From: Eledone cirrhosa | Lineage: Eukaryota | Assembly: GCA_964016885.1 (NCBI GenBank) | Contig: OZ024743.1 | Coordinates: forward strand, 119,722,001-119,786,000 | Length of the DNA: 64,000 nucleotides | Reading direction: 5' to 3' | In this document: piece after piece, positions 35,770 to 56,186 of the stretch | Numbering within the stretch: position 1 is the stretch's first letter | Layout: each line of letters opens with the position of its first letter | Position numbers and translations under genes: made by a program | Notes under the pieces: generated by a model | Database searches by the model: none | What the model was told of the DNA's origin: nothing | Seen by the model: the letters and a program-made list of their open reading frames with translations, nothing else

Positions 35770-36294
35770 ATAAAAATAAGTTAAATAAAGTAAAGTTAAA
35801 TAAAAGTCAAATGATTAAAATTTAGCTTCGTTTATTACTGCTATATATATTTCAGTGACAGCCATCTTTGGCTGTGACCTCTTCAGGCAGTTTGAATTAG
35901 TATGGTATAGACAAGTACATATGTTGTTTAGGTGTATAATATTGTCAATACTCTGATATGCCCAGTTCCTGGTTGGGTTGTTATTTCAATTGATTGAAGC
36001 TAAATTTTAATCATTTGACTTTTATTTAACTTTATTTTACACTACTCCGGAGTAACCAAACTAACCTGCGCACTCCGTCGAGTGCTCCAGGCTGCATACT
36101 GAGGTATTGGTATACAACCAACATAAACTCAAAAGATTCAGGACCCCGGCGGCTGAGTTCCGGCCGTTTCGACAGCTAGATCCGAACTAAGCCAGTGTCG
36201 GGGTCTTGAATCTTTTCATGTTACCCACTCTACTACCCCAAGTACTATCGAGTACTCTGGTGCGTTTTGGTCCACCTGGAATCTTAGCACACCC
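35770..36294. mobile_element. PLE-derived bipartite insertion: hammerhead arm (minus, 35770-35995) plus inverted tail arm (plus, 35996-36294)
   Basis: 35792-35829 is the reverse complement of 35996-36033. The hammerhead is at 35837-35891 and a long hairpin at 36131-36216. Homologous pieces are at 56005-56186, 25108-25373 and 24996-25066. Confidence 0.8.
35837..35891 (-). ncRNA. Type-I hammerhead ribozyme motif
   Basis: ACTGC CTGAAGA GGT-CACAGCCA-AAGA-TGGCTGTC-ACT GAAA TATATA TA GCAGT. Stem II shows a compensatory change relative to 25164-25219 (ATAGCCA/TGGCTAT vs ACAGCCA/TGGCTGT). Confidence 0.8.
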
Positions 36295-36629
36295 TCTTTG
36301 TTTGTTATATATATATATGTGTGTGTGTGTGTGTGTGTGTGTGTGTGTGTGTGTGTGTGTGTGTGTGTGTGTGTGTGTGTGTGTGTGTGTGCGCGCGCGC
36401 GTGTGTCTGTGTGTGTATGTGTGCATGTGTGTGTGAGTATGTATGTACGTGTTTATGTACGCATGTATGTCTGTCTTCTGATGTCATTTGCTGTGCCATT
36501 ATACATAAAGTTATGTTGATTAGCTCCACGATAAATCTAGTAGATCAGACATGTTTGATAGAGTACGGTACCGAACCTGCCTTTCCATCTTTATGTCGTG
36601 TATAATATATGGAAGTTTTTTGTTAGTAT

Positions 36630-36730
36630 TTCTAACGGGTAAAGCCATTCCTCTTTCTAACAGGTAAAGCCATCCTCTTTCTGAACTTGTAAAGCCATCC
36701 CTCTTTCTAACAGGTAAAGCCATCCCTCTA
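36630..36730 (+). repeat. Minisatellite, 4 x ~24 bp
   Basis: TTCTAACAGGTAAAGCCATCCCTCT repeated. Confidence 0.9.
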
Positions 36731-39078
36731 TTGTTGTTGTAATTATTTTGTGTTTTGTTTGATTTCGTTATCTTCGTTGCTGGAGACGAATTTAGAATTT
36801 ACACTAGAATACAAGTATATATATCTATGTAGTATATATTTGAGAGAGAGAGAGAGAGAGAGAGAGAGAGAGAGACCGTGAAAGAAAGAGAGAGAGAGAG
36901 AGAGAGAGAGAGAGAGACCGTGAAAGAGAGAGAGAGAGAGAGAGAGGGAGAGAGAGAGAGAGCGTGAGAGAGAGAGAGCGTGAGAGAGAGAGAGAGCGTG
37001 AGAGAGAGGGAGAGAGAGAGAGAGAGAGAGAGAGAGAGAGAGAGAGAGAAAGAGAGAATGAAAGAGTGTATTTGACTAATTGTTCATTACCGTTATGTGT
37101 CTCCAATGTAAATATATATCTAATGATATTTGCTGTTGTAGATTGTTGCTGTTATTCTCGTCTTCGTCATTATCGTCACCCACCATCTTCGTCAACATGA
37201 TCATCAACGCCATTAGTGTAATTATTGCTGTTGTGATTGCTGGTATTTTTGTTACTGTTGTTGGAGTTTTTTGTTGTTGTTGTTGTTATTTTTGTTGTAA
37301 ATTTTTATTGTTGCTGTTGCCCTCTTTATCTTCGTTTATATTTTATTTGTGTACTGATTTCGCGTGAGTACACATTTCTTTGCAAATTATACATGTAGCA
37401 AACCGGTGTATTATTATTATTATTATTATTATTATTATTATTATTATTATTATCATCATCATCATCATCATCATCATCATCATCATCATCATCATCAATC
37501 TTATTATTCCTATATATTTATTTATTTTTGCTCTTTCCCCATATTTAATTTGACCTGTGGGTAAAAAAAATTGCACCCTTTTTCCCCCACTGCTCTCAAA
37601 AAAAAAAGAAAACCTCTTTAAATGGACGAACTCAATTTTGAACGAGACGGAGTATAAATAAGATAATGTATAAAATAAAATGAAATGAAATAAAAGAGAC
37701 GCCGAAATAACCCAGGGGTGGTTAGTTATCTCTGGGATACCTTTTATCAACCAAATAAATAAATAATGTTTTTATATTTTTTTATGTAAAACGACGAAAA
37801 ATACAGAAAAAATATATAAAGTCAGTCCGCCTACCCAACACCTCCAGGTTTTGCAGGCTAATACCACTCTCCTGTGATGGTTGCAGTGGTGGTGGTGGTA
37901 GTGATTGTGTTGGTGGTGGCAGTGGTGTTTGATGGGTGGTAGTGCTTGATGGGTGCTGCTGGTGATGGCGGTGGTGAACATTTTGCTTCTCATCTCATTA
38001 ACCAATCCCGCCGGCCCGTCACACTTGACCTGACAAAGCCGTGTTAGAGGTCGCTAATGAAGAGGACACAACAAAAAATTGCAGCCGTGCTCGGTCACAG
38101 TTCATTGAAGACATCACAACTAGTAAGATGCAATAACGAAAGTCACCACCATCATCATCATCATCATCATCATCATCTTCATCATCACCATCACCATTAC
38201 CATCATCATCATCATCATTACCATCACCATTACCATCATCATCATCATCATCTTTATCATCACCATCACTATCACTTTCATCATCATCATCATCATCACA
38301 CTGTCACCATCAGGACCCAACCACTACCCGACCTTTCAGTGAAACGCTAAAACAAAAATAACAAATAAAATATGGGAGACAACCGTTCTCTTTTCATTTT
38401 CATATATTTTGTGATTTTTACCCTCCATTTCATTCGATTCTCTCATTTTTTGTTAATATCATTTTTGTTATTGTTAGTGATCGTGATGGTGTCAGTGATT
38501 GACGTTTTTTTCCTCTGTGACATTACAATTATATATATGTATATATATATATATATACACACAATCAACCATACATACATACATTCACACATGCATACAT
38601 ACACATACATACATACATACATGCATACATACACACACATACATATATACATACATACACGCATATATATATATATATATAGACACAAATATTACAAGGT
38701 AAAAGAATAAAAAAACAAACATGATACGCTAAAAGAAGATATGGAGAGGGTTTGGTTCTTACAGTTGTTGTTAATGTGTTGTAGTAATTAATAGCAAGTA
38801 ATACGTTCACATGGCATCAATAATGGCATAAAAGAGATTTAACAATTTCATTTCGTATGGATTTACTGGTGGTATGTTGTACAGTTGTTCTTTTGTATGT
38901 AACGTGCGCGTTGTGTATATGTATGTGTACGAACACACACATATCACATATATATATATAATATTTGTATAATATATATACATATATATGTGTGTGTGTG
39001 TGTGTGTGTGTGTGTGTGTGTGTGTGTGTGTGTGTGTGTGTGTGTGTGTGTGTGTGTGTGTGTGTGTGTGTGTGTGTA

Positions 39079-39607
39079 TTAGGTTGAGGAAAAAGTTCGT
39101 GCGCCGTGTTATAATAATGGTCGCGCCATCAACGCTGAACTTTACTGTGAGCAACTTGAGCGAGTCTACGATGCGCTGGTTGAAAAGTACCCAAGTCTTG
39201 TTCGTCGAACACGCGCTTTGTTTCAGCAAGACAATGCAAAGCCGCATACCGCCAGAAAGACCAGAAACAAGATTGAAGAATTGGACGGTGTGGAATTTCT
39301 GCCGCATCCAGCCTATAGTTCAGACCTTGCTCCATCTGACTACGGTCTCTTCCGATCAATGCAGCACTTTATGAAAGGTTGCCGATTTGAGTCATTCGAT
39401 GAAGTTGAAGAAGCCTGTCAAGAATTTTTCGATTCAAAGCCGAAGGATTGGCACCTTGACCAAATCCGAAAGCTTGCAGGTCGTTGGCTGAAGGTCGTGG
39501 ACAATGATGCTCCTTATTTTGAAGAATAGTTGTTGTTGTTTTTGAATAAATTCTTGCATAAAAAATCATTATTTTAACACGGCGCACGAACTTTTTCCTC
39601 AACCTAG
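39079..39607 (+). mobile_element. Internally deleted mariner (DD34D) with both TIRs and TA TSD
   Basis: TIR TTAGGTTGAGGAAAAAGTTCGTGCGCCGTGTTA and its reverse complement. The transposase C-terminus FQQDNAKPHTA..LPHPAYSSDLAPSDYGLF..YFEE* (39218-39529) is present and the N-terminal half is deleted. Confidence 0.95.
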
Positions 39608-54773: not shown

Positions 54774-54881
54774 TGCTGACAATTGTTTCTCTGAACTGGT
54801 TGGTCTAGAGATCGCTATTCGCTTGTTTTCACGTTACTCGATCGCCAATACGAAATTATAACCAGTCAGTTCTTCGGAGCA
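54774..54881 (-). ncRNA. Hammerhead motif with enlarged stem II
   Basis: TGCT CCGAAGA ACTGACTGGTT...AACCAGTTCAGA GAA ACAATTGT C AGCA. GUC site, and the same ACAATTGT stem III as 34577-34626. Confidence 0.65.
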
Positions 54882-55199
54882 TGTGAGAATGAAGAGAATA
54901 TACATATATATATATATATATATATATATATATATATATATATATATATATATATATATATATATATATATATATATATGTATGTATATATAATATATAT
55001 ATATCTTCTTCTTCTTCTTCTTCTTCTTCTTCTTCTTCTTCTTCTTCTTCTTCTTCTTCTTCTTCTTCTTCTTCTTCTTCTTCTTCTTCTTCGCCAAATT
55101 ATTCCTGAGAGGGGTGTGGAAGTAGAATCATCAAACACTCCTCCCACCGCGCCTTGTCAGAAGCAACCGTCTCCAACTCCGGCTAGATCTCCAAATGAA

Positions 55200-55665
55200 A
55201 CCAACCAAGCTCATAGATGTTATCTAGCTATCTTGCTCGGTGTCTATCTCTGGATTTCCTATTAGTAAAAACTGTCCAGTGGTTCTTTCCTGGGATATTC
55301 TAAGCACATGCCCACAGTAACAAAGCTGTGATCTCTCAATTCGGAGAAGTAGCAGCTCTACCTGGAGTGATTCTTTGATCTCTAAGCTGCGCACTCTCTC
55401 GACCCTTCGAAGGAATCCTATTTCAGCTGATTGTGTTCGCGATCGTATTTTTTCAGTCATTACCCAAGATTCATGACCATAAGTAAGGGTTGGCCCGAAT
55501 ACCGAATTGAAGATAACAAGTTTGGTTTTTACACCTACTTCCATTCTTCTGATTACCGAATGCTGGAGCTAGCGCATTACTGCACCAGCTCCTGCAATTC
55601 TGGCACTTAATTCAGCCTACTGCCTTCCATCACTCGCGAACATGGCCCCAAGATACTTGAGCTGG
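55200..55665 (-). pseudogene. RTE-clade (Expander/Rex3-like) LINE fragment
   Basis: KYLGAMFASDGRQ..ARIAGAGAVMR..KTKLVIFNSVFGPTLTYGHESWVMTEKIRSRTQSAEIGFLRRV..LLLRIERSQL..GHV. Confidence 0.8.
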
Positions 55666-56004
55666 CATATACATACATAGATACATACATACATACATAC
55701 ATACATACATACATACATACATACATACATACATACATACATACATACATACATACATATACAGATAAATCTACCACTCAATGGTAGGGTCTAAACCATA
55801 TAAAGAACTCAATGTAATCCGTATGCAGAAGATGTCGTGAAGCAAAGTTTAAAATACTAAAATTTTATCAACGATATAATTCAATTGGATACAGAGTAAA
55901 ATAGAAATATTAAAACAATGAAATTAAACACAAAACTGTTAATTTATAGTAAAACTCATATATATATATATATATATATATATATATATATATGTATATA
56001 TATA

Positions 56005-56186
56005 TAAATTTTGAGTTTATGTTGGTTGTATACCAACACCTCAGTATGCAGGCTGGAGCACTCGACGAAGTGCGCGGGTTGGTTTGGTTACTCCTGAAGA
56101 GGTCACAGCCAAAGATGGCTGTCACTGAAATATATATAGCAGTAATAAACGAAGCTAAATTTTAATCATTTGACTTTTATTTAACT
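56005..56186. mobile_element. PLE-derived bipartite insertion: inverted tail (56005-56093) joined to hammerhead arm (56094-56186)
   Basis: The left part is the reverse complement of ~36049-36135 and the right part the reverse complement of ~35790-35886. (TA)n lies on both sides. Confidence 0.85.

What the first reader, a model, noticed from the sequence alone, without database searches (positions are those of the whole stretch)
35770..56186. Three related insertions show a fixed bipartite architecture: hammerhead arm ends in (TA)n, downstream tail appears only inverted
Seen: 35770-36294 and 56005-56186 share near-identical sequence, and 25108-25373 is a diverged relative. Joining overlaps gives a sense order of hammerhead, AT-rich stretch ...TTAACTTTATTTTA, ACTCCGGAG..GAGTGCTCC..GCATACTGA, long hairpin, GAGTACTCT. 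In both close copies the hammerhead arm stops at essentially the same TTATTTT(A) position against (TA)n. Sequence downstream of that point is present only as an inverted block on the 5' side. At 56088-56094 the junction TTACTCC resembles stem I (ACTGCC), suggesting microhomology. Inference: reverse transcription starts internally on the RNA, and the 3' tail is copied by a second priming or template-switch event, similar to twin priming.
Basis: partly seen in the sequence, partly recalled or inferred. Interest (0 to 1): 0.75.

Follow-up and report, generated by a model that had tools for sequence, protein, structure and literature searches.

The report
Twin-primed Hydra-Penelope retrotransposon stubs
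These are short back-to-back insertions of Penelope-type jumping genes, a shape already described, and their two outer ends nearly always fall on two different fixed sites about 100 bases apart, which likely means that both cut DNA strands copy one RNA, each starting just ahead of a small conserved hairpin.

Summary
The three insertions are real. They are head-to-head stubs of Hydra-clade Penelope-like retrotransposons (PLEs) in (TA)n; a 4.15-kb coding parent with tandem pLTRs was found. The tail is not only inverted: it often follows the hammerhead directly. The long hairpin with GAGTACTCT (36131-36306) is a separate family. The rule that holds is that one arm ends at S1 (pLTR end) and the other at S2, about 100 nt further: 42 of 42 divergent end pairs were S1/S2, and families 2 and C agree; three S2/S2 exceptions exist. 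Inverted pLTRs, a one-sided tail and two internal RT starts are published (PMC3846280, PMC8557442, PMC11167929). My paper searches did not find the S1/S2 exclusion, the shared haplotype of the arms (169 of 175 site comparisons), S2 arms that stall inside the tail, or a bulged hairpin a few nt past both sites. These favour twin priming on one RNA (about 0.65, inferred). This scan has reported the same reading before, on other DNA of this genome and in other genomes.

The parts
35770..35992 (-). Copy A, family 1: arm ending at S1 (pLTR 3' end) against a short TA tract
35837..35891 (-). Minimal type I hammerhead of copy A (complete by descriptor; activity untested)
35996..36135 (+). Copy A: opposite arm from -43 through S1 to S2 (+96), carrying the ~100-nt tail
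36044..36085 (+). Bulged hairpin H1 (RCTC / inner stem / 2-nt bulge / GAGYRC), starting 5 nt past S1
36131..36306 (+).
56007..56094 (-). Copy B: S2 arm, tail only (from S2 back to +10)
56093..56194 (+). Copy B: S1 arm of about 100 nt; hammerhead lacks the 5' strand of stem I
25119..25284 (-). Copy C (related family C): S1 arm with complete hammerhead at 25164-25219; 5' end at the family's hot spot
25285..25372 (+). Copy C: S2 arm, tail only, stopping at S1; H1 hairpin at 25292
24993..25066 (+). Family-2 tail fragment in the same TA tract as copy C (not part of C)
35424..35765 (.). Fourth family: two-arm insertion of the same build directly left of A, with the hairpin at 35503 (minus strand)

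Best explanation
A, B and C are short head-to-head insertions of Hydra-clade Penelope-like retrotransposons, likely made when the endonuclease cuts both strands of a (TA)n target and each freed end primes reverse transcription on the same RNA, one at site S1 and one at site S2 about 100 nt downstream. Shown: family identity, the two fixed ends, their near-obligate S1/S2 pairing, the shared haplotype of the two arms, and a bulged hairpin starting about 4-9 nt past each site. Inferred steps: (1) the hairpins H1 and H2 seat the two RT active sites, probably of a dimer; (2) the usual template is the 5' end of a transcript starting near -224 in the pLTR, so most products are 200-330-nt stubs; (3) the S2-primed RT must pass H1 and the S1-primed hybrid, and often stalls there, giving tail-only arms like B and C, or displaces it, giving overlapping arms; (4) the two cDNA 3' ends are joined by microhomology or templated-insertion end joining; (5) if only one end primes, a single arm results.
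For: Parent: L070, L108 and L109 hold tandem pLTRs around an RT and GIY-YIG-type ORF with Hydra motifs, unit 4152 nt; L070 has the textbook inverted pLTR plus tail at its 5' end. Ends in family 1: 1602 S1 ends and 1690 S2-pattern matches genome-wide; the S2 count includes some read-through copies. Pairing from the position lists on C1 up to 172.9 Mb (92 S1, 100 S2 matches): 42 divergent S1/S2 pairs within 5 kb, 0 S1/S1, and 2 S2/S2 pairs in which one member is an internal read-through. In 70 loci covering the first 100 anchor hits: 39 of 48 adjacent arm pairs were S1/S2, 1 scored S1/S1, 0 S2/S2, 8 had one arm ending elsewhere. Family 2: 14 of 30 loci S1/S2 by script, none homotypic. Family C: hammerhead anchors outnumber tail anchors 2673 to 175, yet 0 of 30 hammerhead-anchored loci have an opposite S1 arm and 2 of 30 have an opposite S2 arm. 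Same template: arms agree at 169 of 175 comparisons at 9 diagnostic sites, against 73% in shuffles (0 of 5000 reach it); 8 of 39 insertions share a 5' breakpoint away from the hot spot (shuffle mean 0.9, 0 of 20000). Asymmetry: 8 of 35 S2 partners of long S1 arms stop inside the tail, against 0 of 26 S1 partners of long S2 arms being under 100 nt (Fisher p=0.016). Junctions: 17 of 23 without insertion overlap by 2 nt or more (null 17%); 7 of 11 insertions over 3 nt copy 7 nt or more from the adjacent arms. Hairpin: present past both S1 and S2 in families 1, C and 2 with different inner stems; 0.008 hits per shuffled unit. The family-2 H2 was predicted first, then found in 7 of 8 pattern hits. 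In vitro, another PLE cuts and extends both strands from two internal sites that bound its tail and is predicted to be a dimer (PMC11167929).
Against: S2/S2 insertions exist (L242, L243, L246), so the rule is not absolute. L051 was scored S1/S1, although its first arm reads 6 nt into the tail. Arms can overlap by up to about 2 kb (L075), which on one RNA needs long strand displacement that is untested. A shared haplotype also fits two RNAs from one locus, one arm copied from the other, or later gene conversion. Tail-only arms could come from later deletion of the centre of a palindrome. Junction overlaps come from BLAST ends and may be inflated. Target duplications are mostly unreadable in pure (TA)n: 8 of 39 scored, against a shuffle mean of 2.4 and maximum of 7. 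No A-to-G excess among private variants shared by both arms (4 of 26). Samples are the first hits on one chromosome.
Confidence: 0.65

Rival explanations
1. Fold-back or self-priming: one cDNA folds back at its 3' end and copies itself, and the endonuclease trims the second arm at S1. This is close to the published ideas of self-priming (PMC3846280) and EN-mediated resolution of the tail (PMC8557442).
For: Junctions at palindromes (TCATATGA, hammerhead stem II), shared breakpoints in 13 of 39 insertions and shared haplotype. Short inverted pieces ending near -187 in L067, L104 and L112 look like aborted snap-backs. S2/S2 cases.
Against: The S1 arm reaches further 5' than the S2 arm in 20 of 39 insertions, and 8 S2 arms stop at or before S1 and so share no sequence with their partner; B and C are of this kind. 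A copy of an S2 cDNA cannot hold sequence the cDNA lacks, and a sense snap-back strand from an S1 cDNA cannot add the tail. A start-type hairpin lies past S1 as well as S2.
Confidence: 0.13
2. Twin priming on two RNA molecules held asymmetrically in one particle, or two RNAs from one locus.
For: Explains long overlapping arms without strand displacement; allows S2/S2; compatible with haplotype concordance if the RNAs come from one source copy.
Against: Does not by itself explain the absence of clear S1/S1 pairs even in family C, where S1 arms dominate, the shared off-hot-spot breakpoints, or the stalls inside the tail.
Confidence: 0.15
3. All insertions began as full palindromes, and tail-only arms such as B and C arose later by deletion of the centre.
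For: Long palindromes are unstable (general knowledge, no call); microhomology-mediated deletions are described in PLEs (PMC3846280).
Against: Copies are young (mostly 95-99% identical to the parent). The loss is one-sided (8 of 35 against 0 of 26). It does not explain the S1/S2 pairing itself.
Confidence: 0.05
4. The inversions are assembly artefacts.
For: Contigs from public runs did not bridge A's junction.
Against: Each junction is different and many carry templated insertions; the two arms differ at 64 of 5201 compared bases; some whole units carry target duplications with unique bases (L103, L069); both end sites recur in independent runs.
Confidence: 0.02

Closest known systems
Hydra clade of C-terminal EN+ Penelope-like elements (PMC8557442 section 11; Hydra-1_Obim of Octopus bimaculoides is listed in its supplement)
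   Same: RWK, DKT, CxCX5C linker, CxxC and CxH around the EN E and N, hammerhead in the pLTR, (TA)n targets.
   Different: Unit 4152 nt against 'generally <3 kb'; hammerhead sequence differs from the listed Hydra-1_Obim motif. No phylogeny was run.
Complex PLE insertions with an inverted 5'-truncated pLTR and a one-sided tail (PMC3846280, PMC8557442)
   Same: Head-to-head arms, tail on one arm only, palindromes at some junctions.
   Different: Tail about 100 nt (families 1 and C) and about 80 nt (family 2) against 30-40 nt. The papers call the tail optional or 'often at one end'; here exclusion of S1/S1 is near complete, and the published self-priming reading does not fit non-overlapping arms.
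PAc Poseidon element in vitro (PMC11167929)
   Same: Two internal RT start sites that bound the tail; both strands cut and extended; AT-rich target; predicted dimer.
   Different: The passages read do not address whether the two strands of one event use different sites, nor the origin of inversions, nor a hairpin downstream of each start.
LINE-1 twin priming (seen only as a search listing and abstract start, for example PMC2837659; mechanism otherwise recalled)
   Same: Two primers on one RNA, inverted 5' part, microhomology join.
   Different: In L1 (recalled) the second priming is sporadic, at variable sites, upstream of the first, with non-overlapping arms. Here both sites are fixed, the event is routine, and arms usually overlap.

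Membership tests
Penelope-like element, EN+ | Single RT plus C-terminal GIY-YIG ORF | tested here: met
   RT motifs (LDIASYY, GSSDSAQVTDLVG, YRDDALF) and an LVY...YIG endonuclease read in L070, L108, L109; all three are frameshifted. Pfam and PDB sequence searches gave no RT or GIY-YIG hit for the family-1 pieces, so the call rests on motifs.
Penelope-like element, EN+ | Partial-tandem pLTRs, inverted 5' copy, tail | tested here: met
   L070 and L109.
Penelope-like element, EN+ | Minimal hammerhead with palindromic helix III in the pLTR (PMC4209133) | tested here: met
   Descriptor met in A and C, not in truncated B. Rfam listed no hammerhead hit at A, B or C among the 150 of 223 rows shown. 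Cleavage not tested.
Penelope-like element, EN+ | 30-40 bp tail | tested here: not met
   About 96-100 nt in family 1.
Hydra clade | RWK motif and DKT in place of DKG | tested here: met
   RRMRWKAF and HADKTNN; also RLRWR and HSDKTGN in the family-2 parent.
Hydra clade | CxCX5C linker; CxxC and CxH around the EN E and N | tested here: met
   CNCRNPESC, CKLCLNE, N...CRH.
Hydra clade | Absence of the CCHH motif in the EN | tested here: inconclusive
   Not evident by eye; no alignment to reference ENs was made.
Hydra clade | (TA)n insertion preference | tested here: met
Hydra clade | Generally short (<3 kb) | tested here: not met
   4152-nt unit. The paper gives this as typical, not defining.
Hydra clade | Phylogenetic placement of the RT | not tested
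   No tree was built.
Retrozyme (independent non-coding hammerhead element; definition recalled) | No coding parent; tandem or circular small units | tested here: not met
   Stubs are mostly 95-99% identical to the termini of a coding parent.

The most novel reading that the evidence does not exclude
Hydra-clade PLEs integrate routinely by programmed twin priming: a protein dimer bound to two copies of a bulged hairpin on one RNA starts one cDNA from each strand of a double-strand cut. Tail length is then set by hairpin spacing, and inverted pLTRs, the one-sided tail and short stubs all follow from one mechanism that differs from LINE TPRT and recalls telomerase template positioning.
Probability: 0.5. 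Interest if true: 0.7.

Novelty: new member of a known kind. Interest (0 to 1): 0.5.

Why it matters
How PLEs make inverted pLTRs and a one-sided tail is named as an open question in PMC8557442, and an in vitro system now exists (PMC11167929). The genomic rule (one S1 end plus one S2 end, same template, hairpin just past each site) turns that question into three direct assays. It also explains thousands of hammerhead-bearing palindromes in this genome as ordinary PLE debris rather than a new ribozyme element.

Tried and rejected
1. My first hammerhead scan used a lazy regex and found nothing; it was redone. 2. The first S2 pattern was out of phase and caught only 99 atypical ends; it was repeated. 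The atypical set gave two of the S2/S2 exceptions. 3. Score-ranked hits are biased toward A's own build and were not used for the pairing counts; 7 of those loci, plus 4, were added only to the private-variant test. 4. Hammerhead cleavage as a main source of arm 5' ends: only L086 (1 of 39) has both arms starting at the predicted cut, and a TA-run-plus-cut-site pattern gave 8 hits genome-wide against 4029 anchor hits; rejected as a main route in family 1. 5. RNA-editing signature shared by both arms: not found (A>G 4 of 26; 14 of the 26 come from one locus). 6. The idea that GAGYRCTY acts as a palindromic duplex between H1 and H2: family-2 H2 reads GAGCAC, which breaks it, while the local hairpin holds. 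7. Minimum-energy folding of the hammerheads and tails gave weak z-scores (-0.5 to -2.8) and is not evidence. 8. No RNA holder was listed; the raw-read run laid gave no reads, so transcript start and empty sites were not tested. 9. Pfam and PDB searches were blank for the family-1 RT. 10. Four very short inverted S2 pieces seen by eye (L073, L091, L099, L106) were left out of the counts.
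Full report
Observation. The three stretches are present as described. A and C hold a full minimal hammerhead on the minus strand; B lacks the 5' strand of stem I. Positions below are relative to S1, the last base of the pLTR (0). 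A has an S1 arm of about 210 nt and an opposite arm from -43 to +96. B has an S1 arm of about 100 nt and an opposite arm from +10 to S2. C, from a related family, has an opposite arm that stops at +1. A fourth element of the same build lies directly left of A.

Identity. An exact 25-mer from the AT stretch occurs 4029 times in the 3.0-Gb genome. [quoted passage not shown] The motifs RWK, DKT, CxCX5C, CxxC and CxH match the Hydra clade as defined in PMC8557442 (section 11 read whole, other passages by term search, supplement searched for Octopus rows). Pfam and PDB gave no hit for the RT pieces. The tail is simply the first 96-100 nt after the pLTR, that is the 5' UTR of the next unit. Families C and 2 have related coding parents.

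The rule. What holds is the pairing of ends. S1 ends number 1602 and S2-pattern matches 1690; 8 of the first 100 of the latter have the template-like continuation and may be read-through. On C1 up to 172.9 Mb there are 42 divergent S1/S2 pairs within 5 kb, no S1/S1, and two S2/S2 pairs in which one member is an internal read-through; free choice would give about half homotypic. In 70 loci covering the first 100 anchor hits, 39 of 48 arm pairs were S1/S2, one scored S1/S1 (L051, whose first arm reads 6 nt into the tail), none S2/S2, and 8 had an arm ending elsewhere. Family 2 gave 14 of 30 S1/S2 by script, about five more by eye, none homotypic. In family C single S1 arms dominate (2673 against 175 anchors), but no S1/S1 appeared in 30 loci. 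Exceptions: three S2/S2 insertions, L242, L243 and L246. Independent runs show loose (TA)n ends at both sites and a steep fall in cover past S2; A's own junction was not bridged.

Mechanistic traces. The two arms agree at 169 of 175 diagnostic comparisons (shuffles 73%). They share a 5' breakpoint within 5 nt in 13 of 39 cases, 8 of them away from the hot spot (shuffle mean 0.9). 31 of 85 short-arm 5' ends lie at -226 to -219, while the second CATATG palindrome at -137 has no end between -152 and -128, which points to an RNA 5' end rather than a palindrome effect (inferred). The S1 arm reaches further 5' in 20 insertions and the S2 arm in 6. S2 arms stop inside the tail in 8 of 35 cases (at +53 to +61, +37, +8 to +10 and -1), while S1 arms are never short beside a long S2 arm (0 of 26; p=0.016). 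Those stops lie just 3' of hairpin H1 (+5 to +46) and just 3' of S1, as expected if the S2 enzyme meets a roadblock on the same RNA (inferred). Junctions show short overlaps or templated insertions. Target duplications are readable in few cases (8 of 39 against a shuffle mean of 2.4).

Hairpin. Earlier notes of this scan pointed to a hairpin past the ends; I tested it. A bulged hairpin (RCTC, inner stem, 2-nt bulge, GAGYRC) starts about 4-9 nt past both S1 and S2 in families 1, C and 2, with different but pairing inner stems. It occurs nowhere else in the family-1 units scanned, it is lost at one site in L070 and in L109 by point changes, and it appears 0.008 times per shuffled unit. The family-2 H2 was predicted and then found in 7 of 8 hits; that pattern itself demanded the outer stem. 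Its role in setting the start is inferred.

Against. Hammerhead cleavage is not a main source of 5' ends here, no editing signature was seen, long overlaps need strand displacement, S2/S2 cases exist, and the samples are the first hits on one chromosome.

What is known. PMC3846280 (passages by term search) describes inverted pLTRs, a tail optionally on one of them, and proposes self-priming. PMC8557442 describes the same build and attributes the tail to EN resolution. PMC11167929 (parts 1-2 of 4 read) shows two internal starts bounding the tail and extension of both strands. PMC4209133 (passages) defines the hammerheads. Searches for Penelope with twin priming, pLTR, tail, template, both strands or dimer listed no paper that, in what I read of it, states S1/S2 coupling or the paired hairpins; most of the other listed papers were seen only as listings, subscription papers and bioRxiv supplements are outside the library, and the supplements of PMC11167929 were not opened. 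This scan has reached the same reading many times (53 findings in at least 15 genomes; several in this genome); these are unchecked notes and not independent support.

Verdict. Real, and a new member of a known kind. The architecture is published; the coupling rule and hairpins make an open mechanistic question directly testable. Interest 0.5.

Noticed in passing
window 2867-3400: Another two-arm insertion with a tail of about 36 nt and a hammerhead variant (Rfam HH9 at 3177-3247, below gathering score) whose core reads UUGAUAA, a possible U3-A8 compensatory form.
   Followed up: partly
family 2, e.g. L200 and window 36131-36218: The family-2 pLTR also seems to carry a UUGAUAA-type core, and has G where U16.1 is expected; it may be an atypical or dead hammerhead.
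   Followed up: no
S2 ends of family 1 (e.g. L004, L071, L251, L254): Variable (CT)n runs sit between S2 and the (TA)n flank: 9 of 46 scored ends have 2-6 units. This may be reiterative, telomerase-like synthesis at initiation; needs empty sites.
   Followed up: partly
L073, L080, L111, L051, L069 flanks: Short unique target motifs are repeated several times within the TA flanks on both sides, as if the target duplication was reiterated.
   Followed up: no
L067, L104, L112, L024: Short inverted pieces starting at the -224 hot spot end near -187 in unrelated DNA; possible aborted snap-back synthesis.
   Followed up: no
families 1 and C: Usage of the two sites differs strongly: about 1:1 in family 1, about 15:1 (hammerhead to tail anchors) in family C, although the hairpins are alike.
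   Followed up: partly
window 4029 (+), 40844 (+), 25553 (-), 10171-10202 (-): Further copies of the bulged hairpin or close variants near TA tracts, probably tails of other Hydra families.
   Followed up: partly
window 14848-15363 (-): GIY-YIG endonuclease fragment of another Penelope-like element (Pfam PF01541, E 1.4e-7).
   Followed up: partly
L029:560-1010: A family-1 3' piece is joined behind the GIY-YIG end of a different PLE (CxxC-linker type); nested insertion or chimera.
   Followed up: no
window 39083-39529, 53353-54480, 47749-48210: Mariner-like transposase fragments and LINE RT fragments, judged by eye.
   Followed up: no
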